Shown here piece after piece: positions 968-30,738 of a stretch of 31,601 nt of DNA. The position numbers and the translations under genes were made by a program. Source of the stretch: Minisyncoccota bacterium (GTDB taxonomy: Bacteria; Patescibacteriota; Minisyncoccia; Minisyncoccales; UBA10102); NCBI GenBank assembly GCA_036397395.1, contig DASWIZ010000038.1:1-31601 (forward strand). The letters run 5' to 3'. The notes below the pieces were generated by a model. That model had not been told where the DNA came from. It did not search any database and worked only from the letters and a program-made list of their open reading frames with translations. Numbering within the stretch: position 1 is the stretch's first letter; each line of letters begins with the position of its first letter.

Positions 968-3900
968 ATGCATCGAATTCTCGTTGTAGCAACAGTCTTG
1001 TGCGGCGTAACTCTTCTTGCCCTGCAGGTTTTTGTGCTTGGAGTTTTCTTTTTTTCATTGCGTACAGCGCAAGCCGCTCCTCCGCCGTGCGACGGCACAT
1101 GGAATACTCCCGGGCAGTACGACTGCGTTGTGCCGCCCGGAGTTACTTCAATCGATGTTGAAGTAATGGGTGCCCAGGGAAGTCATCTTGGAGGAAATGG
1201 AGGAGCGGTAAGTACCGTGCTTTCCGGGCTTACGCCAGGCGAAACGCTCCATCTTTTTGTTGGGGGCGAAGGATCTGGCGGGGGAACTACCATTCCTGCT
1301 GGCGGTTTCAACGGCGGAGGCGATGGTGGAAGCGGGCCCGGCGCATTTGCCTATACCGCTCACGGAGGCGGAGGCGGGGGCGGTTCCGACATACGCCGGG
1401 GCGGCAGCGCGCTAGCCGATCGTATCGTGGTCGCCGGAGGAGGAGGCGGAGGCGGAACCAACTATTTCGCTCCTTCCGGACTCGGTGGCGAAGGAGCCTA
1501 CTCAAACGGAGAAAATGGACTGAATGGACAATTCTGTCCACCCCTAGGCTCAAGGGATGGCGGTTGTGGTCACGGAGGCGGAGGCGGAACGCAAGGGAGT
1601 GGGGGAACAGGAGGAACAAGGGGAGTTGGCGGTATCCCGGGAGGCGCATGGGGCAACAACGGTATAAGCGGCTCCGCTGGCGTTGGCGGCAAGGGTGGCG
1701 ATGGTGTTGGCGGTTCCAATAGTGGTCTTTCGGGAGGCGGCGGAGGCGGGGGTTGGTACGGCGGCGGCGGCGGCGGATCAGGAGGTGCGGCGACCACTGC
1801 CGTTGGCTCAGGCCAGCCAGGACACGGAGGAGGCGGCGGCGGCGGATCTAGCTTTGTAAACCCCGCGATTGGCAACAATACGGTTTACACAAATGGGTTT
1901 CGGCTCGGCAACGGCAAAATCATCATTACCTCCCCCTCGAAGTATGCTGCCCCAACAGCTGATTCCATTACCATACCGCCTGGTTGGTACAACGGAAATT
2001 TTCAGGTAAACTATACAGCTTCCGGCGGTTTATGTGAACTGTGGACAAAAGACGGGTCTGATCCCTGGACAAAAAGGGCTGACGTGACTTGCGGCGCAAA
2101 TAAAACGGCCGCCGTTCAAGTTCCCGCGTGGTGTAGTACAACAGGGGTTGGCCAATGCGGAGTGCGTGTTGTGGCAAACCCAGGACCCGCGCCCCAGCAA
2201 GTTTTTTACTTCACGGGGGGGCCGCAGCCCTGGACCGTGCCTCCCGGAGTTACCGAGATACAAATTGATATACGAGGCGCGGAGGGAGAATCCAGCTTTG
2301 TAAGTAACGGCTATGCCGCTGATTCTGGGCCGGCAGGCAAGGGGGGGCGCGTACAGGCAACCATTCCCGTTACTCCACTCGAAATCCTTGAACTTTACGT
2401 AGGCGGAAAAGGTTGGGGCACAGGAAACGGATGGAATGGAGGAGCAAGTGGAGGAGCGGTTATAGGTGGGGCCGGTACCGGAGGAGGCGGTTCCGACATA
2501 CGCCGGGGCGGAAACGCGCTAGCCGATCGTATCGTGGTCGCCGGAGGAGGAGGGGGAGCTGGCAGAGGACTTAACGCTGGCGGCGGAACTGGAGGAAATG
2601 GAGGAGGGGCGTTTAACGCCGCGGATGGACAAATAGGCGGAAAGTTTGCTGGTAACCCTGGTGGAGGCGGGGGAGCAGGAACACTAACAGGAGGAGGCAA
2701 TGGGGGCTTGTCAGGCGGGTTTCCGTTCGGTTACGGCGATATGGGAACATTTGGAAACGGGGGCGCCGGGGGTTCGCACGTCTTTCCTCCTCCCGCATCA
2801 TTTTTTTCCATACCCGGAGGCGGAGGCGGAGGCGGATATTACGGAGGCGGAGGCGGGGGAATGGGCGCGTATGATGTTGGGGACCCTTACGGAGCTGGCG
2901 GAGGCGGAGGCGGAGGCGGATCCAGCTACTGCGATCCCGATCCCGCTGTATGCGGCGGCGTAACGCACGCGCAGGGCTACCAAGGAGGCAACGGCCAGAT
3001 TATTGTGAGCTATATTGTGTCGGGTGCTGGCCCGTCAGTGGAAGGCTTTGCGGATATGGATTTTGAGGCTCCCACCATCGCCAGCTTCACTGCCACAGAC
3101 GGCGTAACCACGGGAGACGTAAACACCCCTCTTGCGGCAGACACTCCCTCCATTACCCTCGCATGGGCAGGCAACGACGCTCCCGGAGGCTCCGGGCTGG
3201 ATCACTACGAAGTATGGCGCAGTCCAGACGGAATGGGAGGCTGGACTAAGATAAGCTCAAACCTGCCTCCCGCCACCACCACCTTCTCTGACGCTCCCGG
3301 AAGCGGAGACTGGTGGTATGGCGTGCGCGCCCTAGACAAGGCCCTGCCTTCTGGCAACTGCATTACCGAAGCCGGCGGCCACTCGTGCGGAGGAGTGGGG
3401 TCAGACGCGTTTGACCCCCGCGCCGTGGTAGGCCCCATCATCGTGCAAATCAACGATCCTCCCAAAGTGGATGCCGGGGGAAACCAAACCATGGACTTCC
3501 CCGGCGCCATTACGCTTGACGGCGCCGTAACAGACGACGGCCTTCCCAACCCTCCCGGAGCGGTAACCACCCTGTGGAGCGTGGTAAGCGGCCCCGGGGC
3601 CGTTACCTTTGCGGACCCCGCTTCCATAGACACGACCGCCTCCTTTACCGTGGAGGGTGTGTATGTGCTGCGCTTGGAGGCGAACGACGGCAAGGCTTCC
3701 GCTTCAGACGAGATTACCATCGGCCCCACGCCTTACGGGCTGGTGCCCTGCGGGGTGGACCGGAACGACCCGAGCACGCCGTATGACGAAACAGATGCAT
3801 GCACGTTTAATCACGTCTTTCTTTTGCTCTGGAACGTGGTGAACTTCGCGCTATGGAAACTGGCGCCGCTTCTTATTGTCATTATGGTGGTGCTTTCCGG

Positions 3901-4084
3901 CGTTATTATGTATTTCCAGCTGGGCGACGTAAATACTTTGGTGCTGGTAAAACGCATTTGGCGGTACGTTGGCATTGGCGTGCTTGTGCTGTTATTTTCC
4001 TGGCTTGCGCTAAACTTTTTCCTGGGCATTTTAGGTTTTAACATAAACATCTTTGGCCAGTGGTTTCAGATAAACCTTAATTAA
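968..4084 (+). CDS. Large secreted, membrane-anchored glycine-rich surface protein. It has two Gly-rich beta-type domains, an FN3-like domain, a PKD/Ig-like domain and a C-terminal two-helix hydrophobic hairpin.
   Basis: N-terminal signal/TM segment (VVATVLCGVTLLALQVFVLGVFFF). Two copies of the module VPPGVTxI..V.GAxG...GGGGGSDIRRGG(S/N)ALADRIVVAGGGGG. FN3-like stretch YEVWRSPDGMGGWTKIS..WWYGVRALD. PKD-like stretch VDAGGNQTMDFPGAITLDGAVTDDG...VEGVYVLRLEANDG. The C-terminus holds two predicted TM helices (LAPLLIVIMVVLSGVIMYF and VGIGVLVLLFSWLALNFFLGILGF). A TATAAT at 951-956 lies just upstream. Confidence 0.7.
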   Translation: MHRILVVATVLCGVTLLALQVFVLGVFFFSLRTAQAAPPPCDGTWNTPGQYDCVVPPGVTSIDVEVMGAQGSHLGGNGGAVSTVLSGLTPGETLHLFVGGEGSGGGTTIPAGGFNGGGDGGSGPGAFAYTAHGGGGGGGSDIRRGGSALADRIVVAGGGGGGGTNYFAPSGLGGEGAYSNGENGLNGQFCPPLGSRDGGCGHGGGGGTQGSGGTGGTRGVGGIPGGAWGNNGISGSAGVGGKGGDGVGGSNSGLSGGGGGGGWYGGGGGGSGGAATTAVGSGQPGHGGGGGGGSSFVNPAIGNNTVYTNGFRLGNGKIIITSPSKYAAPTADSITIPPGWYNGNFQVNYTASGGLCELWTKDGSDPWTKRADVTCGANKTAAVQVPAWCSTTGVGQCGVRVVANPGPAPQQVFYFTGGPQPWTVPPGVTEIQIDIRGAEGESSFVSNGYAADSGPAGKGGRVQATIPVTPLEILELYVGGKGWGTGNGWNGGASGGAVIGGAGTGGGGSDIRRGGNALADRIVVAGGGGGAGRGLNAGGGTGGNGGGAFNAADGQIGGKFAGNPGGGGGAGTLTGGGNGGLSGGFPFGYGDMGTFGNGGAGGSHVFPPPASFFSIPGGGGGGGYYGGGGGGMGAYDVGDPYGAGGGGGGGGSSYCDPDPAVCGGVTHAQGYQGGNGQIIVSYIVSGAGPSVEGFADMDFEAPTIASFTATDGVTTGDVNTPLAADTPSITLAWAGNDAPGGSGLDHYEVWRSPDGMGGWTKISSNLPPATTTFSDAPGSGDWWYGVRALDKALPSGNCITEAGGHSCGGVGSDAFDPRAVVGPIIVQINDPPKVDAGGNQTMDFPGAITLDGAVTDDGLPNPPGAVTTLWSVVSGPGAVTFADPASIDTTASFTVEGVYVLRLEANDGKASASDEITIGPTPYGLVPCGVDRNDPSTPYDETDACTFNHVFLLLWNVVNFALWKLAPLLIVIMVVLSGVIMYFQLGDVNTLVLVKRIWRYVGIGVLVLLFSWLALNFFLGILGFNINIFGQWFQINLN
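1381..1447. repeat. Near-identical ~67-bp direct repeat, copy 1, inside the Gly-rich gene (encodes GGSDIRRGGSALADRIVVAGGGGG)
   Basis: cggttccgacatacgccggggcgg..gcgctagccgatcgtatcgtggtcgccggaggagg recurs at 2488-2554 with about 3-5 mismatches. Confidence 0.8.
2488..2554. repeat. Near-identical ~67-bp direct repeat, copy 2, inside the Gly-rich gene
   Basis: Same sequence as 1381-1447, with aaac in place of cagc and a divergent 3' end. Confidence 0.8.
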
Positions 4085-4146: not shown

Positions 4147-4512
4147 TTATTTTTTCTTCTTTTTATCGTTGAGTTGTTTGTCGATAATATTGAGTACCTG
4201 TTCAAGCGTAACTTCTTTTGAAGGCAGAATTTCCTCTTTGTTGCCTTTGTGTTTATGGTGAGGAAACGTTGGGACTGTTCGGTGGTGCGGCGCGTTATCC
4301 CAGCGACAGACAAGTTTACCGCTATGAGTTTGCCAGTGGTAGGAATACTTTGTTTCTGTTTTTGTTGTGAGTTCGCGGATATACAGAAAAGAGGTGCCGC
4401 GCAACGTTGCTTTCGCAGAAAAAACCTGGATATCTTCTTCGTCAACAAAATGAAGAATATCCAGGCGTGAAACAACTTTGCTTTTGCGGAGAAGCTCAAT
4501 TAAGTGGTACAT
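4147..4512 (-). CDS. Hypothetical protein with a paired-His motif (RWDNAPHH...FPHHKH) and a lysine-rich tail. Second gene of a two-gene operon.
   Basis: 121-aa ORF that directly abuts the stop of the upstream minus-strand gene (4512/4513). No confident family assignment. Confidence 0.4.
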   Translation of the reverse strand: MYHLIELLRKSKVVSRLDILHFVDEEDIQVFSAKATLRGTSFLYIRELTTKTETKYSYHWQTHSGKLVCRWDNAPHHRTVPTFPHHKHKGNKEEILPSKEVTLEQVLNIIDKQLNDKKKKK

Positions 4513-4803
4513 TCAGAACTTCTGGTAGCGTTTATGCCATTTCTCGTATGCTTCGGAAAGTCCTTTCCAGACGATATAATCATCCCACAACTCAAAGTTT
4601 TCTTTCTTTTGGGACTTTACTTTTTTCTCAAATTGAGAAAATGAAATTTTGTATTTCGATTCGAGAACCTGCATGTGCCGTTCGTATTCTTTCATCTTTG
4701 CAAAAACAACGCTTCTCAATATGCCCGTGAGGTATTCTTTGGGCTGGGGAGTTAATTCCGTTACCCATTTAGGAAGAGTATAAGAAAAATTACGCTGCGC
4801 CAT
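4513..4803 (-). CDS. Hypothetical small protein (96 aa), first gene of a two-gene operon. Possible TA-like pair.
   Basis: The ORF is contiguous with 4147..4512. Residue composition is protein-like. No recognised domain. Confidence 0.4.
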   Translation of the reverse strand: MAQRNFSYTLPKWVTELTPQPKEYLTGILRSVVFAKMKEYERHMQVLESKYKISFSQFEKKVKSQKKENFELWDDYIVWKGLSEAYEKWHKRYQKF

Positions 4804-4904
4804 ATGCGGCTATTATACATCAGCGCCGATTTCGCGTCAACTTGCGGATTGTGACTTCCGATGGCAAAGGAGCCAAAAGCTAAAAACAAACTAGCCCCTT
4901 CCTT

Positions 4905-5171
4905 TTGACTAAGGGGGGCTTGGCACTAAGCCTTGCCCCCGAAACTTTTATGGATACAGCTCAAAAAGCGCAACTCGAAAATATCAAGGAAAACAAAAAA
5001 CTGGCCCAGTTGAATAACGATGGGCCTTTTATCGCGTTTCTTGGGTTTCTTTTATTTGGGATAGGGTTTACGAACACGTATGGGATTTCTTTAGGCATTC
5101 TTATTACAATGGCATTCGCGCTTTTCGCGTTTTTTGGCATTTCCTTCCTTGTTCGTATTGCCGGCGGTTAA
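4905..5171 (+). CDS. Small membrane protein with two TM helices
   Basis: 88-aa ORF. The C-terminal half (FIAFLGFLLFGIGF...ILITMAFALFAFFGISFLV) forms a hydrophobic hairpin. A stem-loop at 4889-4915 overlaps the start codon. Confidence 0.45.
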   Translation: MTKGGLALSLAPETFMDTAQKAQLENIKENKKLAQLNNDGPFIAFLGFLLFGIGFTNTYGISLGILITMAFALFAFFGISFLVRIAGG

Positions 5172-6635: not shown

Positions 6636-6687
6636 TACTTTTACATATATTCTTGTGTTTCTTTTGAGAGATGTTTATAATTATATA

Positions 6688-8790
6688 ATGCCAACAAAAA
6701 AGATTTTTCTCTCTTTGTTTCTTGGAGTTAGTATTTTTGCTCTGCTTGCAGCTCCGTTGCAGGCGTCTGCATGTTGGGCGATATTTCAATGGGCTTGTGA
6801 TATCGGTGGCAATCTTGTAGAAGACATAGCTCGTTTGATTGTATCTGCGGTCACCATTACTACTGGCCTTATTTTCTTTTTGGTTGCTGGTGTTACCAAC
6901 TGGATTATTACGACTCTTATAAATGTTGGCGTTGCACCAGGGGTTGGGCCGCAGTTTGTTACAGACGGATGGACGTTTTCGCGGAACTTTGTAAACATAT
7001 TCTTTTTGTTAATCCTTGTTTTTATCGGCCTTGCCACTATTTTACGCCTGCGCGAGTACGAGCTGCAAAAAACTCTGCCGCGGCTTATTGTTGTAGCGTT
7101 GCTGGTAAACTTTAGCGGCTTGCTGGTTGGCTTTTTGGCGGATGTTGGGAATATTATCACAGTATTCTTTACCCAGAATATTACAGGAGCTCCCGGCGCG
7201 GGTTTGGGTTCAAGTGCTTTCAGGCAGATTTTCAATGCAGGGGGCGATGCTACCACTCAAGCTTTTGCTAATGCTGGCGATCTTGCATCGGGATTTGCGG
7301 CTGCGCTTGCCATAGGAGCCGCCCTTGGGTTCTTTTTTATATTTGCCACTATTGCGTACCTGGCAATTGCTTTAGTATTTTTCTTGCGGCTGGTTATTTT
7401 GTGGGTGCTGGTAATTTTAGCGCCGTTTGCGTTCTTGTTTTCTATATTACCCATAACCAGAAAGTGGTGGAATCAATGGTTAGACGCGCTTATCCAGTGG
7501 AGTTTTATTACCGTGCCTTTGGCCTTTTTTATGTGGCTGGCAAACAACGTCTTGGCAAATCCAATCTCTAGCTTGAGTAGCGGGCCTTCCTTAACTGGCA
7601 ATATTTCTGGATGGTCAACTCTTATTGGTTTAATGATGTCGCCGTTTGTGGCCATTGTGCTGTTGTTTATCGGCCTTGGCATGTCCGCTTCCATGTCCGG
7701 GTTTATCCGCGGCGGCCTGCGCTTCGCCCGTCATGCCGGTGCCGTCGGCGTCGGCGTCCTGGGCGCCAACCTTATCCGCGACAAGTTTCTTGCGCGTTCA
7801 GCAAAAATGCAGCGCCTTGCAAATAGAATGGAAACATTTTCGTCTCGAGGCATGAGCGGAAGAAATGTAGTTGGCCAGACTCTTGGAAGAGCAGGTGCGC
7901 CACTTGTACGGTGGGCGGGCAGAAAAGTGGGATCTGAAACCCAGACAAAAGTTGCTGAAAATATAAAAAAGACGGAAGAGCAAGCAAAGAAGATGTCAGC
8001 CCAGGAAAAAGCCTCGAGGCTTCGCGGGAATATCGGGCTTGACGAAAAAATTGGCATATTAAACGTTGCGGCGCAACAAGGCGAGAGTGATGACGTTATT
8101 CGCGCCGGATTTAGCGAGCGAAGAATTATGGATGTGTACAACTCGGCCAGAAAAATAAACCAACATCAGGATATTCAGGCGGCCTTTCCTCATTTTGTTA
8201 CTGATGATGAACTTCAACAATCTCGCTTTGCTCGCGATTACAACCGCGCGCATCCAGGAGCTAACTTAAGACAAAATCAGGTTACCGCAACACAAGCAGC
8301 TACTGTTACTGCTGCGCAAGTAGTTGATGAGCGTATTCGTATGTACAGTCGAATGAAGCCTGAACGAGTAAAACAGATATCCGAAGGTGCTTTCAATAAC
8401 ACTCCTGGAGTAGGTGGCGCAGTGGGGCCAGGCCAAGAAGCTATGGACAGCATGCTGCTTGGGTTTAATGGCGCGCGGTTTGGCAATGTTGCTTCCGGTG
8501 ACAATGGGCAAGAAGCTGTACAAAACCTTCGCAACCGACTGCTATGGCATGCGACGAATACCACTTCTCCAACTCGTGTTAATCCCGCAGATCCTCGTAT
8601 AGCAGCAATTGTCGGGAGGGCGCCAGGTAGCGCTGGACCAGCTGACCCGGGCGCAGGACTTATGGCTCAACAAGGAATGACGGCAGCAGAAGCAACCGAA
8701 AGAGCACAAATGCGTATCTGGCTTATAAACAATGGAAACGAACCCCTTGCAAGATATCTGCAAGGAACAGGGGGACAAAATCTTTTCTAA
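6688..8790 (+). CDS. VirB6/TrbL-like polytopic membrane protein with a ~330-aa C-terminal hydrophilic domain
   Basis: ATG 6688 gives MPTKKIFLSLFLGVSIFALLAAPLQASA, a signal peptide. The GTG at 6655 is less likely. The first ~380 aa carry at least 6 hydrophobic helices. The C-terminus is polar and Ala/Gln-rich. The gene sits in a locus with VirB3-like and VirB4 genes. Confidence 0.5.
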   Translation: MPTKKIFLSLFLGVSIFALLAAPLQASACWAIFQWACDIGGNLVEDIARLIVSAVTITTGLIFFLVAGVTNWIITTLINVGVAPGVGPQFVTDGWTFSRNFVNIFFLLILVFIGLATILRLREYELQKTLPRLIVVALLVNFSGLLVGFLADVGNIITVFFTQNITGAPGAGLGSSAFRQIFNAGGDATTQAFANAGDLASGFAAALAIGAALGFFFIFATIAYLAIALVFFLRLVILWVLVILAPFAFLFSILPITRKWWNQWLDALIQWSFITVPLAFFMWLANNVLANPISSLSSGPSLTGNISGWSTLIGLMMSPFVAIVLLFIGLGMSASMSGFIRGGLRFARHAGAVGVGVLGANLIRDKFLARSAKMQRLANRMETFSSRGMSGRNVVGQTLGRAGAPLVRWAGRKVGSETQTKVAENIKKTEEQAKKMSAQEKASRLRGNIGLDEKIGILNVAAQQGESDDVIRAGFSERRIMDVYNSARKINQHQDIQAAFPHFVTDDELQQSRFARDYNRAHPGANLRQNQVTATQAATVTAAQVVDERIRMYSRMKPERVKQISEGAFNNTPGVGGAVGPGQEAMDSMLLGFNGARFGNVASGDNGQEAVQNLRNRLLWHATNTTSPTRVNPADPRIAAIVGRAPGSAGPADPGAGLMAQQGMTAAEATERAQMRIWLINNGNEPLARYLQGTGGQNLF

Positions 8791-9148: not shown

Positions 9149-10495
9149 TTAGCAAAGATATCCGTTGTCTTCCTTTGGCTGGACTGGCTCCTCTCCCTCC
9201 CTTAGTTGTTCGTTCACTTCGTGAAGGGCTTCGCCGACAGCCTCCAGGTTTTCGTCGGGCTTTGCCTGATTTGCCTGAAGCTTTTCCACTTGCTCGGTCA
9301 GTTTCGCTATTGCGTCCATGACTTCTGCTGTGTTCCCGGTTTCGGCCCCTCGCATTGCGCTCCCGAGCATATCAGAGAAGCCAGGGATAAACATAGCCTG
9401 TACCGCAGCTCCGGGCTGGCTGTTCCGGATGGTATCAAGAACTTGGTATAAGTGCCCCGAACTACTACCTTCCATTGCTTCGGTCACGCTTTTTAACGCA
9501 TCTGCCTGCCCCTTGGCTTCGGTTCTTAGGGCGTCTGCTTTCCCTTCAGCGCGCCTTATATCAACTTGGGCCTGGATGTTTGCCTCGGTGCGCTGCGTCG
9601 TAAGTTGGCGGTAATTACCACTTGGATCAACGCGGTACACCGAAAGTTCGGGAATGGCTACACCGTAAATCTCCTCAAACTCTACTTTAAAAAGATCTTT
9701 CTCGTTTGTTTCGACGAGCGATTCTTCCCCTTTTTCTCCTTGGTAACGCCAACCTTGCAGGATTTTAGTAAACGCGTCGCCCATGGCGTCCGTATGGGTA
9801 ATCCAGTCATCGTGGCTTCGGTATGTAACTACGTTCCTGGATTCGGCAGCGATGCGCGCAATGATAACTTGCAGCCAGACTCCTGGCCGGGCGCCGGTTC
9901 GAAATAGCGCTTTAAAGGGATTGATGATCTGTACGGTTAGCAGAAGCTGGATATCCAGCGGTACGAGGTCTTTCGCTTCTGCCTCTTTGATCTCGCACCA
10001 GTATACGTCGCGGGCCAGCGGGACATAGTCTACTTCGCCGCTAAGTTCACGGATATTGCCGTGCTCGTCTACTACGGACCTACGCCAGTCGTAACCGAAA
10101 ATTTTCTTGGCGTTAACGAGCGGATTCTCAAACCAGTGAGCTCCAAACAACATTCTGTATCGCCCTGGATATCTTTCCCCCGGATTGTTGTCCTTTATGT
10201 TCCCGTCCCCGTCAAGATGCTTTCCCTCGAATTGCATAATTTCCCCGGCCACCTCTCCGCCGAGGGTAATGAATTTCATTGAACCTTCGTTCACGAACGT
10301 AAACCCTTTGTTCTGCTCAGCTAGTTTTATTACCCAGTCTGCCGCGATTGGTCGCCAGAGAATAGCCCCGGTTCCAATGAGTAATGCCGAAAGTACTATT
10401 AGGGTAATTCCTAAGGCACCAGTGCCAAGGAAAATCCCAATAATCAGCACAAAAAAAGCCCAGATAAGTGTTCCACAAAATAGCGAATTTAACAT
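9149..10495 (-). CDS. SPFH/Band-7 (stomatin/flotillin-like) domain membrane protein
   Basis: N-terminal TM. Central region typical of SPFH (QLLLTVQIINPFKALF...RNVVTYRS...). C-terminus is a coiled coil rich in AEGKADALRTEAKGQADAL. A consensus minus-strand promoter lies upstream. Confidence 0.7.
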   Translation of the reverse strand: MLNSLFCGTLIWAFFVLIIGIFLGTGALGITLIVLSALLIGTGAILWRPIAADWVIKLAEQNKGFTFVNEGSMKFITLGGEVAGEIMQFEGKHLDGDGNIKDNNPGERYPGRYRMLFGAHWFENPLVNAKKIFGYDWRRSVVDEHGNIRELSGEVDYVPLARDVYWCEIKEAEAKDLVPLDIQLLLTVQIINPFKALFRTGARPGVWLQVIIARIAAESRNVVTYRSHDDWITHTDAMGDAFTKILQGWRYQGEKGEESLVETNEKDLFKVEFEEIYGVAIPELSVYRVDPSGNYRQLTTQRTEANIQAQVDIRRAEGKADALRTEAKGQADALKSVTEAMEGSSSGHLYQVLDTIRNSQPGAAVQAMFIPGFSDMLGSAMRGAETGNTAEVMDAIAKLTEQVEKLQANQAKPDENLEAVGEALHEVNEQLREGEEPVQPKEDNGYLC

Positions 10496-10531
10496 TGTGA
10501 AAGTGCTCCTTCCTTAAATTTTGCTGGGTAT

Positions 10532-10560
10532 ATTATACAGGCTTGAGTTTAATTTGTCAA
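10532..10560 (-). promoter_or_regulatory. Consensus sigma70-type promoter for the SPFH operon (minus strand)
   Basis: On the minus strand: TTGACA (rc 10555-10560), a 17-nt spacer, then TATAAT (rc 10532-10537). An SD aaggaagga precedes the ATG. Confidence 0.6.
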
Positions 10561-10577
10561 GCCAGGCGGTTTTTTGG

Positions 10578-10607
10578 AGTTTGGGCGGATTTGGGTTGAT
10601 TTGGGTT
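10578..10607. repeat. Three tandem ~10-bp direct repeats (g/a)tttggg(c/t)(g/t)g upstream of the 10625 gene
   Basis: gagtttgggcg / gatttgggtt / gatttgggtt, read directly. Confidence 0.5.
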
Positions 10608-10624
10608 TGTGGTACACTGGTTTT

Positions 10625-11080
10625 ATGCGTATGCCAAATGAATCCCTCCACTCGTTACATAAAAGGTACATTCGGGGAACACAACCAAAAGCAATTGTAG
10701 AAAACAAAAAGGTTTTCTTGTGCTATCTTACGGCTGCTGTCCATAAGGGCGGTGGCTTCTCGACGCGCAATGTGTATATCACTACGAAAGTGCTCAAACA
10801 CATGTACGACAAAAAGCCGGCCGAAGAATACGATTTTCTGCTTGTACACTTGCCCCAGCTTATAAAGTACCCGGATCATATCTATGAAAATAGAAATGGC
10901 AAACGAGGCAACATTTGTTTTACCAAAAGTATAAAAAACCAGCAATACTTTTGTTCGCTGGAAGATGACACGGAAGCACAAGAGATTATGATAGTAACCG
11001 CTTACCGCATTCGTGATAAGAAGTACCTCGAGAAATATAGCCTGTTGTGGAGCTGGAGGGACGACGCCCCCTCATCGTAG
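10625..11080 (+). CDS. Hypothetical protein. Possible PBECR-like (Barnase/EndoU/RelE-like) nuclease domain.
   Basis: ATG 10625 (MRMPNESL) is in frame with the track ORF. The motif VYITTKVLKHMYDKKPAEEYDFLLVHLPQLIKYPDHIY...KRGNICFTK...IMIVTAYR resembles the phage-associated PBECR nuclease family. This assignment is tentative. Confidence 0.35.
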   Translation: MRMPNESLHSLHKRYIRGTQPKAIVENKKVFLCYLTAAVHKGGGFSTRNVYITTKVLKHMYDKKPAEEYDFLLVHLPQLIKYPDHIYENRNGKRGNICFTKSIKNQQYFCSLEDDTEAQEIMIVTAYRIRDKKYLEKYSLLWSWRDDAPSS

Positions 11081-11317
11081 TACGTTCGATGTCCGAAAAG
11101 GACCTACTTGTACCCCGCAGTAGAGCCGAGTTTCTGCTTTTCAGCCCCACAACAAACTACCCTTCCTTACGTTACGTGCTATTCTGTTCCCAAAAGACCT
11201 TCCGCTAGGTGTGGTATATAAACCACGGCCGAAAGCCTTTTTCAATTTCTATACTACCAGAAAGTCATGCTGGTTGTCAAGCGCAGTTTTGGGTAAAAAA
11301 GAACCCGCGGAAAAATC

Positions 11318-11347
11318 TTGTCAAGGGGGCGGGTTTTGTGCTAGCAT
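11318..11347 (+). promoter_or_regulatory. Promoter module copy A (TTGTCA, 18 nt, TAGCAT with an extended TGn)
   Basis: aaatcttgtcaagggggcgggttttgtgctagcatgaa. Two related copies lie at 11889 and 12613. Confidence 0.5.
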
Positions 11348-11353
11348 GAAGCT

Positions 11354-11617
11354 ATGACGGTTACTACTATTAAAGTAAAAAATGGAGTTATGAAGCTGCC
11401 AAAAGCGTTGCAGAAAGCATGGGGAAATGCTCGAATTTCTGTTCGGGTGTATAAAGATAAAGCGGTATTGGAGGGGCCGATCCCTCAAGCTCAAAAAAGA
11501 AAATATAATCTTGCTCTTTGGCAAAAAGCTGCTGGCATCTTGAAAAACAAAAAACTGCCAGATGCTGTTCAATGGCAGCGGGAAATCCGCAAGGAATGGG
11601 AAAGAAAGATCGTATAG
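11354..11617 (+). CDS. AbrB/SpoVT/MazE-type antitoxin
   Basis: The N-terminus TIKVKNGVMKLPKALQKAWG fits the swapped-hairpin AbrB/SpoVT fold signature. A PIN gene follows directly. Confidence 0.55.
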   Translation: MTVTTIKVKNGVMKLPKALQKAWGNARISVRVYKDKAVLEGPIPQAQKRKYNLALWQKAAGILKNKKLPDAVQWQREIRKEWERKIV

Positions 11618-11626
11618 CGTTTCGGT

Positions 11627-11920
11627 ATGTTTACGCTTGATACGAATATCCTCGTGTACTACGCTGCAGGTGACGGAAAAGTTACCTCTTTTGTTTTTGA
11701 GCGGCTGAAAGAAGGCAAGATTTTTTATGTACCCACAATTGTTGTGGTAGAATTTTTCTCTTTTCCTGCTCTTGGGCCAAAAGATAGTGAGTTGTTTGAA
11801 TATCTTTTTTTACATCTTGACGTAACCGCTCTAGACGTTCGTATCGCCAAAATTGCTGGAGATTTGCGAAAAAGATACGGCCTAAATCTTGTCAAGAGGG
11901 TGGGTGTTGTGCTAACATAA
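11627..11920 (+). pseudogene. PIN-domain (VapC-like) toxin gene, 3'-truncated where promoter module copy B begins
   Basis: Starts MFTLDTNILVYY, the PIN Asp box. A conserved Glu is present (VVVEFF). The reading frame then runs into the repeat element (..KRYGLNLVKRVGVVLT*) before the 3rd and 4th acidic PIN residues would occur. At 97 aa it is short of the ~130 aa expected. Confidence 0.5.
11889..11918 (+). promoter_or_regulatory. Promoter module copy B (TTGTCA, 18 nt, TAACAT)
   Basis: aaatcttgtcaagagggtgggtgttgtgctaacataag. Confidence 0.5.
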
Positions 11921-11926
11921 GAGTAT

Positions 11927-12166
11927 ATGGCAGACAATAAAGAGATAAATAATCTTTCAGCAGATATATTCTCCAACCCTGCATACTTTGGCAAGCATGT
12001 TGTTGTTGTGAATGGCGAAGTCCACGAGGCGCGCACTGGCGAGGAAGCAGTAAAAATTCTTGAAGAGGTTCGCAAGAAATACCCGGACAAACAGCCCACT
12101 CTTACCTATATTCCCGAAGAGGAAACGCTTATACTGTTTTTCTATGGAAAAACGTTTCTCGTTTGA
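11927..12166 (+). CDS. Small protein (79 aa), DUF5678-like. Partner of the downstream retropepsin-like protease.
   Basis: GKHVVVVNGEVHEARTGEEAVKILEEVRKKYPDKQPTLTYIP resembles the small proteins that accompany archaeal/bacterial retropepsin-like proteases. Its 3' end overlaps the protease gene by 23 bp. Confidence 0.4.
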   Translation: MADNKEINNLSADIFSNPAYFGKHVVVVNGEVHEARTGEEAVKILEEVRKKYPDKQPTLTYIPEEETLILFFYGKTFLV

Positions 12167-12563
12167 AAAGCGTTGGTCTCAAATTTTCGGAGAGATCTGG
12201 CGTCCTGTGGCGCTGGTAGATTTTGCTTCAATTAATGAACTAAACACCTGGACTACGGTGCGCATGATTGTAGATACGGGCGCTGATTACTCTCTTTTAC
12301 CGCGGTCGTATGCCAAAGCGCTCAACGTGGATCTTGAACGCGATTGTCAACCGTTTGAAACGGCCGGGATTGGGGGAAAAGAACTGGTTTTTGTCCACCC
12401 TCAAATTCGTATTCGTATTGGAGAATGGGAACGGGAAGTTCCCGTAGGGTTTCTTGAACGTGATACCGTGCCCCCGCTCCTTGGACGACAACAATTCCTT
12501 GAAGTGCTCTCGGTTCTTTTCGAGAACCACACTACTACGTTTCGCACGCAAACGAAGACATAA
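12144..12563 (+). CDS. Retropepsin-like (clan AA) aspartyl protease
   Basis: Catalytic motif MIVDTGADYSLLP (DTGA). About 140 aa, typical of single-domain retropepsin-like proteins. ATG 12144 is in frame with the track ORF. Confidence 0.6.
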   Translation: MEKRFSFEKRWSQIFGEIWRPVALVDFASINELNTWTTVRMIVDTGADYSLLPRSYAKALNVDLERDCQPFETAGIGGKELVFVHPQIRIRIGEWEREVPVGFLERDTVPPLLGRQQFLEVLSVLFENHTTTFRTQTKT

Positions 12564-12612
12564 TACCGTCCCAGCTGTGAGCAAAAAGAACGGCCACGCC
12601 CGCGGCAAAATC

Positions 12613-12642
12613 TTGTCAAGGGGTTGCGCAAGGTGGTAAAAT
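12613..12642 (+). promoter_or_regulatory. Promoter module copy C (TTGTCA, 18 nt, TAAAAT)
   Basis: ccgcggcaaaatcttgtcaaggggttgcgcaaggtggtaaaatacag. The ~40 bp upstream of the -35 resemble copy A (aaaaagaac..ccgcgg..aaaatcttgtcaagggg). Confidence 0.5.
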
Positions 12643-12668
12643 ACAGAAAGAAAAATAACCATACTGTT

Positions 12669-13187
12669 ATGGCGCAATACACCAAAGAACAATACTGGGC
12701 AATATACGAAAAACTTCCCCAGGAACTAAAAGAGGCGGTGTTTTCCAACGAGGTGGCAGAGCACATTGCGACAGCGTGCGAGCGGAACAACGTGCAGGAA
12801 ATGTCGCAGGTTGCCGCCGCGGTTGGCGACGTGTTAATGGGCGTTACCAAACCAAGCGATTTCCAGCAGGCGCTGCAAAAAGAAGTGGGGTTACAGTTGT
12901 CTGTCGCGCAGGCCGTGGCCCAGGAACTGAACCGGTTTGTGTTTTATCCGGTAAAAGCGCAGTTGGAAGACATTCACCGCGTTCCCGCGGAGCAGCCAGA
13001 GCGGGCAAAAGATATTGGAGTTGCGACCCCCCGGCACGAAGGTGAGCGCAGAACAGCAACACCGCCAGAACCACAGCCCGAAGATGATTATCTTATTGCA
13101 GAGGAGGCCGAGCAACGGCAAGAAGAGGAAATTGTGGAGCAACCAAACCCTCAAGAATCAGATCAGTATAGGGAAAAACCGGAATAA
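12669..13187 (+). CDS. Hypothetical protein with an acidic C-terminal tail, immediately upstream of the VirB3-like gene
   Basis: ATG 12669 (MAQYTKEQYW) lies downstream of promoter copy C. The track start at 12624 is a TTG inside the promoter. Its stop overlaps the next ATG (TAATG). Confidence 0.4.
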   Translation: MAQYTKEQYWAIYEKLPQELKEAVFSNEVAEHIATACERNNVQEMSQVAAAVGDVLMGVTKPSDFQQALQKEVGLQLSVAQAVAQELNRFVFYPVKAQLEDIHRVPAEQPERAKDIGVATPRHEGERRTATPPEPQPEDDYLIAEEAEQRQEEEIVEQPNPQESDQYREKPE

Positions 13188-14089: not shown

Positions 14090-14782
14090 ATGGCAAGTTC
14101 TGCTCAAGAATTTTTAGAATTCCAAGATGTCCGCGAAGGCACCATGGTGTTGAAAGACCGCTCCATCCGGGGCATTATGTTAGTGTCGTCCACGAACTTT
14201 GCCTTAAAGTCGCAGGAAGAACAAGACGCCATTGTGTACCAATTCCAAAACTTTTTAAACTCGCTGGATTTTTCCATTCAAATTACCATTCAGTCGCGGC
14301 GGCTGAACATTACCGGGTATATTGACCGATTAAAAGCGCTGGAACAAGAACAAACCAATACCTTGCTGCGCGAGCAAACGGCAGAGTACCGCAAATTCGT
14401 GGAAACGCTTATCGCGGGAGGTTCCATTTTGGCGAAAAACTTTTTTGTGGTAGTGCCGTTTACTCTTATAGAGGCGAATCCCGACGCAAGCCAGACAACC
14501 GCGGGAACGCTGTTTAGGTCAAAGCCAAAGCTGGTGGGAAAGTTAACGGATGACGAGTTTGAGCGCATGAAAACCCAGTTGTGGCAGCGTATGGAGTTTG
14601 TTGCGCTGGGCCTGCGCCGCATGGGCTTGCACGTGGCTCCGTTAAATTCAGAGGAAATTATTGAGCTGTTGTGGACTTGGTACCACCCGGAAGACGCGGA
14701 AGTCGGCTACTATCCGGAAATTCCCCCAGAGATGCTGCAGCAACGAGTGCAAAAGAATGGCCCCTCGACAAACTCGAGGTAA
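14090..14782 (+). CDS. virB4: VirB4/TrbE N-terminal domain, encoded as a separate 230-aa ORF
   Basis: TMVLKDRSIRGIMLVSSTNFALKSQEEQDAIVYQFQNFLNSL parallels the VirB4 N-terminus (LLEDGSIMSIARIDGVAFELEEIE..). It ends at TAA 14780-14782. The remainder of VirB4 continues in another frame from 14797. Confidence 0.55.
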   Translation: MASSAQEFLEFQDVREGTMVLKDRSIRGIMLVSSTNFALKSQEEQDAIVYQFQNFLNSLDFSIQITIQSRRLNITGYIDRLKALEQEQTNTLLREQTAEYRKFVETLIAGGSILAKNFFVVVPFTLIEANPDASQTTAGTLFRSKPKLVGKLTDDEFERMKTQLWQRMEFVALGLRRMGLHVAPLNSEEIIELLWTWYHPEDAEVGYYPEIPPEMLQQRVQKNGPSTNSR

Positions 14783-14796
14783 AAACACACATACAT

Positions 14797-30253: not shown

Positions 30254-30324
30254 CGGGATATAGTGTAACGGCAGCACGAGTCCTTTGGGAGGATTTAGTC
30301 TCGGTTCAAATCCGAGTATCCCGA
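30254..30324 (+). tRNA. tRNA-Pro (anticodon UGG)
   Basis: Hand-folded: acceptor CGGGATA/TATCCCG (the C1:G72 pair typical of bacterial tRNA-Pro), U8 A9, anticodon arm AGUCC-UUUGGGA-GGAUU, T-arm CTCGG-TTCAAAT-CCGAG, discriminator A. 71 nt. No encoded CCA. Confidence 0.65.
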
Positions 30325-30389
30325 CCCTTCGACAAGCTCAGGGTCTGCGACGTTGAGCGCAGGAGAAGGGCCCTGAGTTTATCGAAGGG
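30325..30389. repeat. Long imperfect hairpin (19-bp arms, 17/19 paired) immediately 3' of tRNA-Pro
   Basis: cccttcgacaagctcaggg ... ccctgagtttatcgaaggg, with an inner stem ctgcg/cgcag. Confidence 0.6.
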
Positions 30390-30404
30390 CTGCAATTAAT
30401 TATT

Positions 30405-30659
30405 ATGTACGAAGTATACATTCTTCGCGGTCCAAAGAACCACCTTTATGTAGGAGTAAGCTCAAACGTTGTATCGCGGGTTAAGCGGCACCAAAGCGGT
30501 GACGGCGCAGAATTTACTAAGCGAACACAAAGCTTCGAACTGGTATATCGTGAATCATTCAAGACGCTGCGAGAAGCGCGTGGGAGAGAACATCAAATTA
30601 AAGGGTGGCGAAGAGAAAAGAAAGAAAATTTGATAAAGTACGGCAAACCAATTATTTAA
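30405..30659 (+). CDS. Small GIY-YIG nuclease-domain protein
   Basis: VYILRGPKNHLYVGVSSNV..RVKRHQ..REHQIKGW are the GIY...YIG/Arg/Glu motifs. 84 aa, wedged between two tRNA genes. Confidence 0.65.
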   Translation: MYEVYILRGPKNHLYVGVSSNVVSRVKRHQSGDGAEFTKRTQSFELVYRESFKTLREARGREHQIKGWRREKKENLIKYGKPII

Positions 30660-30664
30660 GAATT

Positions 30665-30738
30665 GCGGGTGTAGCACAGTGGTAGTGCATCAGGTTTCCA
30701 ACCTGACCACGAGGGTTCGATTCCCTTCACCCGCTCCA
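30665..30738 (+). tRNA. tRNA-Gly (anticodon UCC)
   Basis: Hand-folded: acceptor GCGGGTG/CACCCGC, D-arm GCAC-AGTGGTA-GTGC, anticodon arm TCAGG-TTTCCAA-CCTGA, T-arm GAGGG-TTCGATT-CCCTT, discriminator U, encoded CCA. 74 nt. A short hairpin and T-run at 30741-30775 follow. Confidence 0.8.

What the first reader, a model, noticed from the sequence alone, without database searches (positions are those of the whole stretch)
11300..12650. Three copies of a promoter-bearing module organise small gene cassettes; one copy truncates a PIN toxin gene
The sequence aaatcTTGTCAAG-(18 nt)-TA(G/A/A)(C/C/A)AT recurs at 11318, 11889 and 12613. Each copy lies just upstream of a start codon (11354, 11927, 12669). 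Copies A and C also share ~20 bp further upstream (aaaaagaac..ccgcgg). The PIN ORF at 11627 reads straight into copy B and terminates before its third and fourth catalytic acidic residues. This suggests the copy B plus DUF5678-like plus retropepsin-like protease unit was inserted into, or recombined with, a pre-existing AbrB-PIN TA operon. It points to a modular, promoter-carrying cassette system that shuffles small genes.
Basis: seen in the sequence. Interest (0 to 1): 0.65.

Follow-up and report, generated by a model that had tools for sequence, protein, structure and literature searches.

The report
Duplicated promoter module; recombination-truncated PIN toxin
Three copies of one short promoter head three small operons in an insertion-prone spot of a Paceibacterota (CPR) type IV secretion locus, and one copy was joined by a short-homology recombination to a PIN toxin gene, removing its last third; this is real but fairly ordinary genome evolution, with no sign of a dedicated cassette-shuffling system.

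Summary
AAATCTTGTCAAG occurs exactly three times, at 11313, 11884 and 12608, where none is expected by chance. Each copy reads TTGTCA-18 nt-TG-n-TAnnAT just upstream of a start codon. The -10 of copies A and B ends 6 and 8 nt before the ATG, a leaderless layout that is common in this window.

The PIN gene is truncated. An 85%-identical orthologue is 133 aa, and homology stops exactly at the 5' edge of copy B. The junction lies in a 13-nt near-match (GGCCTAAAACTTG in PIN, GGCAAAATCTTG in the module). The missing PIN 3' end is nowhere in the window. The relative carries the same module 213 nt downstream of its intact PIN. A short-homology deletion therefore fits better than an insertion.

Copy C is the native promoter of the type IV secretion operon and is conserved in relatives. 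Copy B is not part of the DUF5678/protease pair, which uses other promoters elsewhere.

The spot is an insertion hot spot. In relatives it is empty, holds other toxin-antitoxin pairs, or holds an IS. Toxin-antitoxin proteins are 85-97% identical between genomes whose core proteins are 41-57% identical. No recombinase was found.

Promoter activity is inferred from sequence only. Interest is modest.

The parts
11313..11347 (+). Module A. It has a -35 TTGTCA (11318-11323) inside the near-palindrome CTTGTCAAG, an 18-nt G-rich spacer and a TG-extended -10 TAGCAT (11342-11347). The -10 ends 6 nt before the ATG at 11354, which predicts a leaderless transcript.
   Evidence: leaderless geometry
11297..11312 (+). 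Upstream stretch shared by A and C (AAAAAAGAAC..CCGCGG). In relative L006 the matching positions are separated by about 130-150 nt that form a minus-strand promoter-to-terminator unit. Here only the T-run/hairpin remnant is left.
   Evidence: inference
11354..11617 (+). It is 94% identical to the L006 orthologue, with dN/dS 0.046.
11627..11920 (+). Truncated PIN (VapC-like) toxin gene of 97 codons. Residues 1-86 are orthologous, and residues 87-97 plus the stop codon are read from module B. The third conserved acidic residue and the whole C-terminal third are missing.
11879..11892 (+). Recombination junction GGCCTAAA|TCTTG. It is PIN-like to the left and module-like to the right, and lies inside a 13-nt near-match between PIN (GGCCTAAAACTTG) and the module (GGCAAAATCTTG).
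11884..11918 (+). Module B, 89% identical to A. The -35 is at 11889-11894 and the -10 TAACAT at 11913-11918. The -10 overlaps the PIN' stop codon (11918-11920) and ends 8 nt before the ATG at 11927.
11927..12166 (+). DUF5678 small protein, first gene of a mobile two-gene pair.
12144..12563 (+). Retropepsin-like aspartyl protease, overlapping DUF5678 by 23 nt. It gives a weak match to the PADLOC defence candidate PDC-M08B.
12584..12642 (+). Module C with its upstream remnant. The -35 is at 12613-12618 and the -10 TAAAAT at 12637-12642, followed by a 26-nt gap to the ATG. It is the native promoter of the type IV secretion operon. The -10 and leader are conserved in L006, L078 and L076; the 13-mer with its -35 is conserved in L006 and L078 only.
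12669..13187 (+). First gene of the type IV secretion operon ('MAQYTK' protein, no family match). It is followed by PrgI-like, TraC-like and VirB4-like genes.
10532..10561 (-). Consensus promoter TTGACA-17-TATAAT of the divergent Band_7 gene. Its -35 reads TTGTCAAG on the + strand (10554-10561). This is the ancestral TTGTCAAG of this intergenic region.
11251..11281 (-). A further TTGTCAAG (11274-11281) that reads TTGACA-18-TAGTAT on the minus strand. Its right flank is homologous to the sequence next to the Band_7 promoter in L006.

Best explanation
**What the copies are.** They are paralogues of a 35-45-bp sigma-70-type promoter whose -35 lies in the near-palindrome CTTGTCAAG.
- Copy C is the native, conserved promoter of the type IV secretion operon.
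- Copies A and B drive the antitoxin/PIN' pair and the DUF5678/protease pair. Their -10 lies 6-8 nt before the ATG, so the transcripts are probably leaderless. In that layout the promoter alone is a complete, portable expression signal.

**Where they sit.** The stretch between the divergent Band_7 gene and the secretion operon is a hot spot. Toxin-antitoxin and defence-like cassettes and IS elements come and go there by horizontal exchange. Promoter segments get duplicated and reassorted in the process.

**How PIN was truncated.** The toxin gene was inactivated by one illegitimate, short-homology recombination. It joined codon 86/87 to a module copy that lay a few hundred bases downstream, as it still does in the relative L006. 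This deleted the PIN 3' third and the spacer. Promoter B now lies inside the end of the PIN' reading frame.

**Shown versus inferred.** Shown: the repeats, the geometry, the truncation, the junction, the absence of the 3' end, and the comparative gene orders. Inferred: promoter activity, leaderless starts, and deletion rather than another recombination route.
For: - **Repeat and geometry.** There are three exact copies against 0 expected, and only these three sites match the full promoter pattern.
- **Leaderless layout.** A TAnnnT hexamer ends 5-9 nt before the start in 14 of 30 genes, against 7.6% of all ATGs (p = 9e-9). These include other toxin-antitoxin operons of the window.
- **C is native.** In L006, L078 and L076 the spacer end (GGTGG), the -10 (TAAAAT or TACAAT) and the 26-nt leader are conserved. 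The 13-mer is kept in L006 and L078.
- **Truncation.** The Pfam PIN match stops at position 91 of 120. The 85%-identical orthologue P0002 is 133 aa. The blastn alignment between window and L006 ends at 11891.
- **Junction.** Left of it, 30 of 35 nt match PIN. Right of it, 31 of 35 match module A.
- **Deletion rather than split.** No PIN C-terminal remnant is found in the window. L006 has CAAAATCTTGTCAAGGGGGCGGGTTTTG 213 nt after its intact PIN stop.
- **B is not part of the DUF5678 pair.** L072-L075 carry that pair with other promoters, three of them next to tRNA genes.
- **Hot spot.** The site is empty in L077 and L081, holds MNT-HepT in L076 and an IS (rve) in L078, and has a different gene order in L006.
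- **Horizontal exchange.** TumE is 97.5% identical between the window and L005, the TumE-linked antitoxin 96%, the 87-aa antitoxin 94% and PIN' 85%. Core proteins are far lower: TrbL 55%, the 197-aa protein 57%, MAQYTK 41%, Band_7 no hit.
- **Recent truncation.** dN/dS over the 86 retained PIN codons is 0.115, so the gene was under purifying selection for most of the divergence.
Against: - There are no transcript data, so promoter use and leaderless starts rest on sequence alone.
- The -10 hexamers of A and B (TAGCAT, TAACAT) are weak, and the -35 is TTGTCA rather than TTGACA.
- On the opposite strand the same core reads as a perfect TTGACA. In relatives L006 and L079 it is the minus strand that has a good -10, so some copies may be relics of minus-strand promoters.
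- The ancestral arrangement is inferred from a single reasonably close relative. A single-crossover integration of a circular [antitoxin-PIN'] fragment would give the same sequence.
- The rest of the genome could not be obtained. It is therefore unknown whether the 13-mer is confined to this locus.
Confidence: 0.65

Rival explanations
1. The 13-mer, or its TTGTCAAG core, is a crossover site of a dedicated cassette-exchange mechanism. This could be site-specific or short-homology-directed. It would insert and reassort small toxin-antitoxin and defence cassettes, giving each one a leaderless promoter.
For: - Five TTGTCAAG on the same strand bound four successive segments between 10554 and 12613.
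- Seven exact 13-mers in four genomes have left and right flanks in different combinations.
- Gene order around them differs between the window and L006.
- The PIN junction lies in the 13-mer.
- Other cassettes are also flanked by direct repeats of tens of nucleotides: window 21139/21937 and L072.
Against: - No integrase, recombinase or transposase is found in the 31.6-kb window.
- There are no inverted repeats or attC-like structures at the boundaries.
- The exact 13-mers were found by searching for them, which is an ascertainment bias. Variants such as AACTTGTCAAG and AATTTGTCAAG also exist.
- The PIN junction used an imperfect match, as expected for illegitimate recombination.
- A conserved -35 region explains the conservation without any recombination role.
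Confidence: 0.1
2. The near-palindrome CTTGTCAAG is an operator for a DNA-binding protein, for example the retained 87-aa antitoxin. The three operons would then be co-regulated, and the antitoxin would be kept after toxin loss because it controls them.
For: - A CTTGTCAAG lies 29-70 nt upstream of the antitoxin start in all three genomes that carry this pair: window, L006 and L079.
- The antitoxin is under strong purifying selection, dN/dS 0.046, even though the toxin is truncated.
- Conservation drops sharply at both ends of the 13-mer.
- Antitoxins commonly autoregulate through palindromic operators that overlap their promoter (established knowledge).
Against: - No DNA-binding fold could be shown for the antitoxin.
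- The palindrome is only 4+4 bp and coincides with the -35 hexamer, which is enough to explain it.
- Its distance to the start codon varies.
- L078 and L006 have the 13-mer at the secretion-operon promoter, and L078 shows no antitoxin gene nearby within its 5.8-kb contig.
Confidence: 0.12
3. The copies are relics of minus-strand promoters of small non-coding units, as seen in L006. On this view the plus-strand promoter reading of A and B is incidental.
For: - In L006 both module copies read TTGACA-17-TATACT on the minus strand, followed 125-150 nt later by a hairpin plus T-run.
- L079 reads TTGACA-17-TATATT on the minus strand.
- Window copies A and C keep the T-run/hairpin remnant right next to the core.
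Against: - None of the three window copies has a minus-strand -10 (inspection).
- All three have a TG-extended plus-strand -10 at the same 18-nt spacing, in front of a start codon.
- C's plus-strand -10 and leader are conserved in four genomes.
- The two L006 units share only 52 nt, which is the promoter plus about 15 nt, and have no Rfam match.
Confidence: 0.08

Closest known systems
Sigma-70 (housekeeping) promoters with an extended -10, producing leaderless mRNAs
   Same: The copies have -35 and -10 hexamers at 18-nt spacing with TG at -15/-14. The -10 ends 6-8 nt before the ATG in A and B, as at other operon starts in this window.
   Different: The -35 is TTGTCA inside a near-palindrome that reads as a perfect TTGACA on the other strand, and relatives use it in either orientation. 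A 13-mer extending 5 nt upstream of the -35 is identical in all copies. No transcription data exist.
VapBC-type (PIN) type II toxin-antitoxin operons and their decay to orphan antitoxins
   Same: A small upstream gene sits 10 nt before a PIN-domain gene. The pair is conserved as a unit in L006 and L079. It is much more similar between genomes than the surrounding core genes, as expected for mobile toxin-antitoxin modules.
   Different: The toxin lacks the C-terminal third, including the third conserved acidic residue, so it is most likely inactive. The antitoxin fold is not established.
Integron gene-cassette arrays
   Same: Both are tandem arrays of small, unrelated, mostly toxin-antitoxin or defence-like cassettes separated by a recurring short sequence. 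The cassette content also differs between relatives.
   Different: There is no integrase and there are no attC hairpin sites. The recurring sequence lies upstream of each cassette and is itself a promoter, whereas integron cassettes are usually promoterless.
Promoter-bearing small repeats (Correia/MITE-like elements)
   Same: Both are short repeated sequences that supply promoter hexamers to neighbouring genes.
   Different: There are no terminal inverted repeats and no target-site duplications. Only three copies occur in 31.6 kb, all in one locus.
PADLOC candidate defence system PDC-M08 (DUF5678-like protein with retropepsin-like protease pairs)
   Same: The protease matches PDC-M08B models (E = 6e-6). 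The two-gene pair is conserved and sits in varied contexts, often beside tRNA genes.
   Different: The small partner matches no PADLOC model. The function of the pair has not been tested.

Membership tests
Sigma-70-type promoter | -35-like and -10-like hexamers separated by 16-19 nt | tested here: met
   The copies read TTGTCA-18-TAGCAT, TTGTCA-18-TAACAT and TTGTCA-18-TAAAAT, scoring 9-10 of 12, and each has TG before the -10.
Sigma-70-type promoter | Transcription initiates about 7 nt downstream of the -10 | not testable with these tools
   No transcript data are available. It would need 5'-RACE, dRNA-seq or a metatranscriptome.
Sigma-70-type promoter | Conservation at the orthologous position in relatives | tested here: met
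   For copy C only: the -10 and leader are conserved in L006, L078 and L076, and the -35 with the 13-mer in L006 and L078. Copies A and B have no orthologous counterparts at the same genes.
Leaderless mRNA | The -10 hexamer ends 5-9 nt upstream of the start codon, with no room for a Shine-Dalgarno sequence | tested here: met
   The distance is 6 nt for A and 8 nt for B. C has a 26-nt gap between the -10 and the ATG, so C does not meet this criterion. The layout is found at 14 of 30 genes against a 7.6% background.
VapC/PIN toxin (functional) | Complete PIN domain with all conserved acidic residues | tested here: not met
   Only profile positions 3-91 of 120 are covered. The conserved G-D-S/A-V-(V/I)-A-A and T-R-N..D-F segments of seven relatives are missing.
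Type II toxin-antitoxin operon | A small antitoxin gene immediately upstream, co-conserved with the toxin | tested here: met
   The 87-aa gene ends 10 nt before PIN'. The same pair is found in L006 and L079.
AbrB/SpoVT-fold antitoxin | Swapped-hairpin AbrB/MazE-like DNA-binding domain | tested here: inconclusive
   There is no Pfam, NCBIfam or PDB sequence match. The single-sequence AlphaFold model has pLDDT 63, and Foldseek found no match with E <= 0.001.
Integron | IntI tyrosine recombinase next to the array | tested here: not met
   No recombinase domain is found in any sizeable ORF of the window.
Integron | attC sites (imperfect inverted repeats) at cassette 3' ends | tested here: not met
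   No such inverted repeats occur at the boundaries. The recurring element is a promoter upstream of each cassette.
MITE/Correia-like repeat | Terminal inverted repeats and a target-site duplication | tested here: not met
   One search shows none. The only symmetry is the 9-bp CTTGTCAAG.
PADLOC PDC-M08 | Both component proteins match the system's models | tested here: inconclusive
   The protease matches PDC-M08B at E = 5.7e-6. The DUF5678 protein has no hit.

The most novel reading that the evidence does not exclude
The palindromic 13-mer would be more than a promoter core. It would be the preferred crossover point through which toxin-antitoxin and defence cassettes are inserted, deleted and reassorted in the type IV secretion loci of this Paceibacterota clade. 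Because translation is leaderless, each event would automatically supply a complete expression signal in either orientation. This would be an integrase-free functional analogue of an integron. The retained antitoxin might also act on the same sequence.
Probability: 0.1. Interest if true: 0.7.

Novelty: new member of a known kind. Interest (0 to 1): 0.3.

Why it matters
- **A clean worked example.** It shows how a toxin gene is inactivated in an uncultivated CPR bacterium. One short-homology recombination removes the catalytic C-terminus, while the antitoxin and the next operon stay expressed.
- **Promoter portability.** In a genome that relies heavily on leaderless transcripts, a promoter of about 40 bp is a self-sufficient unit. 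It can be duplicated in front of unrelated genes.
- **Where accessory genes accumulate.** The promoter region of the type IV secretion operon is a place where toxin-antitoxin and defence-like cassettes collect and are exchanged between quite divergent co-occurring species.
- **Limits.** None of this overturns current understanding. Its main use is as a set of candidate CPR promoters for experimental testing, and as a marker locus for tracking cassette exchange.

Tried and rejected
1. **Pattern scans of public DNA collections.** The GTDB species genomes gave one hit, in an unrelated actinomycete. JGI metagenomes gave 11 single hits in unrelated, mostly high-GC contigs. A shorter 16-nt version of the pattern gave 53 single hits in IMG/VR, which I take to be chance. 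None was a relative. I looked at some Acidobacteria-like hits that resemble each other and dropped them as unrelated.
2. **Rfam.** Gathering thresholds on the whole window found only two tRNAs. Permissive thresholds on 10400-12800 and on L006 found nothing relevant.
3. **A conserved small RNA behind the modules.** The two L006 minus-strand units share only their first 52 nt, and the window has no counterpart. I did not pursue this as an RNA family.
4. **Terminal inverted repeats or a MITE structure.** None was found.
5. **AbrB fold of the antitoxin.** Profile, sequence and structure searches were all negative or inconclusive.
6. **Module B as a patchwork of PIN and module A.** Three of the four B-versus-A differences equal the in-register PIN base. 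By my own arithmetic the chance probability is about 0.11, so this is only suggestive.
7. **Recent transfer of the 141-nt tract shared with L006.** The high identity of window 12596-12736 with L006 first looked like a recent transfer. The 5' coding part is conserved in all homologues, including distant ones, so constraint explains it.
8. **Plasmid and phage collections.** No match.
Full report
**Setting.** The window is a contig of an uncultivated Candidatus Paceibacterota (CPR) bacterium; that is the source's own name for two of its proteins. The finding lies inside a type IV secretion-like gene cluster:

| Coordinates | Strand | Gene |
|---|---|---|
| 6655-8790 | + | TrbL-like |
| 9149-10495 | - | Band_7/SPFH, divergent |
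| 10625-11080 | + | PBECR3 nuclease-like |
| 11354-11617 | + | 87-aa putative antitoxin |
| 11627-11920 | + | PIN', 97 codons |
| 11927-12166 | + | DUF5678 |
| 12144-12563 | + | retropepsin-like protease |
| 12669-13187 | + | 172-aa protein starting MAQYTK |
| 13187 onward | + | PrgI-like, PD-(D/E)XK, TraC-like, intein-containing VirB4-like |

Further toxin-antitoxin pairs are scattered through the cluster: TumE at 4147-4803 and PIN pairs at 21250-21914 and 22020-22713. No integrase, recombinase or transposase domain was found in any sizeable ORF.

- AAATCTTGTCAAG occurs exactly three times, at 11313, 11884 and 12608 on the + strand. One hundred dinucleotide-preserving shuffles gave none.
- The shared stretch is 35 nt long, with A/B 89% and A/C 71% identical.
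- All three copies, and nothing else in the window, fit TTGTCAAG-N13-TGN-TANNAT. That is a -35-like hexamer, an 18-nt spacer and a TG-extended -10.
- The -10 ends 6 nt (A), 8 nt (B) and 26 nt (C) before the start codons at 11354, 11927 and 12669.
- The extra similarity of A and C further upstream (AAAAAGAAC..CCGCGG) is also real.

**Leaderless layout.** A -10 that ends 6-8 nt before the ATG leaves no room for a leader. This layout is typical of the window. A TAnnnT hexamer ends 5-9 nt before the start of 14 of 30 genes, against 7.6% of all ATG triplets (binomial p = 9e-9). Clear cases are:
- the TumE-linked antitoxin (TTGACG-17-TATAAT-8-ATG);
- the antitoxin at 22020 (TTGACA-17-TATAAT-6-ATG);
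- the pilin-like gene at 22726;
- the 1038-aa gene at 968.

Other promoters in the window share the hexamers but not the 13-mer or the G-rich spacer. The three copies are therefore paralogues and not just hits to a general consensus.

**The PIN gene is truncated, and the break is at the module edge.**
- The 97-aa product covers positions 3-91 of the 120-position Pfam PIN profile.
- The closest relative, P0002, is 85% identical and 133 aa long. Six more relatives are 121-123 aa. All continue after R-K-R-Y-G-L-K-L with a conserved G-D-S/A-V-(V/I)-A-A..T-R-N..D-F segment that is missing here.
- At the DNA level, window 11353-11891 aligns with the relative's locus L006 2740-3277 at 85.7%, and the alignment stops inside the 13-mer.
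- Left of the junction, 30 of 35 nt match the orthologous PIN. Right of it, 31 of 35 match module A and 17 of 35 match PIN.
- The junction sits in a near-match between the two partners: GGCCTAAAACTTG in PIN and GGCAAAATCTTG in the module as it reads in copy C and in L006.
- A tblastn search with the missing C-terminal peptide finds nothing in the window. The gene is not split by an insert; its end is gone.
- In L006 the same module (CAAAATCTTGTCAAGGGGGCGGGTTTTG) lies 213 nt downstream of the intact PIN stop, in front of another gene. One deletion of about 320 nt between the two near-matching sites in such an arrangement would give exactly the window's sequence.
- dN/dS over the 86 retained codons is 0.115, and 0.046 for the antitoxin, with dS of 0.54-0.72. 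The truncation is therefore recent relative to the divergence of the two genomes.
- The junction is identical in assemblies from three other data sources, so it is not an assembly artefact.

**Where the modules belong.** Copy C is the native promoter of the secretion operon. The spacer end, the -10 (TGGTAAAAT or TGGTACAAT) and the 26-nt leader are conserved in L006, L078 and L076. The 13-mer is conserved in L006 and L078.

Copy B is not part of the DUF5678/protease pair. That pair occurs in at least four other contigs in unrelated contexts, three of them directly after a tRNA gene. Each has its own different leaderless-type promoter. Homology with the closest one (L072, 83% protein identity) begins about 4 nt before the ATG and ends at the protease stop. 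B is closest to A, and the similarity runs on to about the start codon.

**The locus is a hot spot.** Relatives found through the MAQYTK protein differ in what lies between the divergent Band_7-type gene and the secretion operon:

| Locus | What lies there |
|---|---|
| L077, L081 | Nothing ('empty site'). The single TTGTCAAG is the -35 of the minus-strand promoter. |
| L076 | An MNT-HepT pair that has replaced the -35 half of module C |
| L078 | An IS with an rve transposase, between the two TTGTCAAG-bearing promoters |
| L006 | The antitoxin-PIN pair and another small gene lie downstream of the MAQYTK gene. The pair is preceded by the promoter segment that precedes PBECR3 in the window. |

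Between the window and L005/L006, toxin-antitoxin proteins are far more alike than core proteins:

| Protein | Identity |
|---|---|
| TumE | 97.5% |
| TumE-linked antitoxin | 96% |
| 87-aa antitoxin | 94% |
| PIN' | 85% |
| 197-aa protein (core) | 57% |
| TrbL (core) | 55% |
| MAQYTK (core) | 41% |
| Band_7 (core) | no hit |

The cassettes, and apparently the promoter segments with them, have therefore been exchanged between quite divergent co-occurring lineages.

**The core is orientation-neutral.** CTTGTCAAG reads CTTGACAAG on the other strand, which is a perfect -35. I found seven exact 13-mers in four genomes:
- Five have a plus-strand -10 at 18 nt: window A, B and C, L006-1 and L078.
- Three have a minus-strand -10 at 17 nt: L006-1 and L006-2 with TATACT, and L079 with TATATT.
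- One of these, L006-1, has both.

In L006 the minus-strand readings are followed 125-150 nt later by a hairpin and T-run. In the window, copies A and C keep only the remnant of that terminator next to the core. The two L006 units share only their first 52 nt and match no Rfam family. I treat them as a side observation.

The flanks of the seven copies occur in different left/right combinations. That fits repeated recombination at or near the core. However, the copies were found by searching for the exact 13-mer, and variants exist, so the sharp conservation boundaries should not be over-read.

**Interpretation.** The best-supported account is ordinary. A strong native promoter region, next to a divergent promoter, lies in a spot where mobile toxin-antitoxin and defence-like pairs are repeatedly gained and lost. 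Promoter segments have been duplicated in front of the inserted operons, and one short-homology recombination fused PIN to the next promoter copy and killed the toxin.

The evidence does not support insertion of a 'B + DUF5678 + protease' unit, nor a dedicated cassette system.

Three alternatives remain open. I give about 0.1 each to a recombination-site role for the 13-mer and to an operator role, possibly for the retained antitoxin. I give slightly less to the copies being relics of minus-strand promoters.

**Limits.**
- There are no transcript data.
- Only one reasonably close relative shows the ancestral-like state.
- The rest of the genome could not be retrieved, because the pattern scans of the public collections returned no relatives.
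- The antitoxin's fold is unknown.

Noticed in passing
window 21139-21180 and 21937-21978: This is a second repeated upstream module: a 42-nt direct repeat, 90% identical. Each copy lies just upstream of a TTGACA-17-TAyAAT promoter. The pair flanks one antitoxin/PIN pair (21250-21914) and precedes the next (22020-22713, leaderless geometry). It shows the same theme as the finding.
   Followed up: partly
window 11081-11281, minus strand: A good minus-strand promoter (TTGACA-18-TAGTAT, 11280 to 11251) faces the 170-nt gap after the PBECR3 nuclease-like gene. It would give an RNA running antisense towards that gene's 3' end. The fold z-score is only -2.0 and there is no Rfam match.
   Followed up: partly
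L006 2108-1940 and 3605-3425, minus strand: In the relative, both module copies start a minus-strand unit of 125-150 nt: TTGACA-17-TATACT, then a hairpin plus T-run. No ORF was apparent on reading the sequence. Only the first 52 nt are conserved between the two units, and the second folds with z = -4.1.
   Followed up: partly
L072 40-117 and 817-894: The closest DUF5678/protease pair elsewhere is flanked by a 78-nt direct repeat, 73% identical. The repeat is the 3' end of an upstream gene whose C-terminal residues (..DPYREK..) resemble those of the MAQYTK protein. It looks like an insertion that duplicated host sequence.
   Followed up: partly
window 4147-5171 versus L005 2958-3938: The TumE toxin-antitoxin pair is 94.6% identical in DNA to the relative's copy. 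It sits on the other side of a small conserved gene (88 aa versus 73 aa), so this cassette too has moved.
   Followed up: partly
window 12144-12563: The retropepsin-like protease matches the PADLOC candidate defence model PDC-M08B (E = 6e-6). The DUF5678 partner matches nothing in PADLOC. The pair is often found next to tRNA genes in relatives.
   Followed up: partly
window 14671-18711: The VirB4/TraC-like ATPase gene carries an intein with a LAGLIDADG homing endonuclease domain. Relatives L077 and L078 have intein-free genes of about 625 aa.
   Followed up: no
window 968-4084: This is a 1038-aa glycine-rich protein (ALK/LTK glycine-rich domain plus a PKD-like domain) with many internal GGAGGCGG-type repeats. 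It includes a 79-nt segment repeated at 94% identity, at 1373-1451 and 2480-2558.
   Followed up: no
window 30254-30735: Two tRNA genes (30254-30324 and 30665-30735) have a small GIY-YIG nuclease gene (30405-30659) between them.
   Followed up: no
L008, L011, L015 (metagenome contigs of unrelated high-GC organisms): Several unrelated contigs share the sequence AAAATCTTGTCAAGRGGGTGCG, and they also resemble one another beyond the searched pattern. In L008 it lies in the 3' end of an ORF. No RNA gene is nearby.
   Followed up: partly
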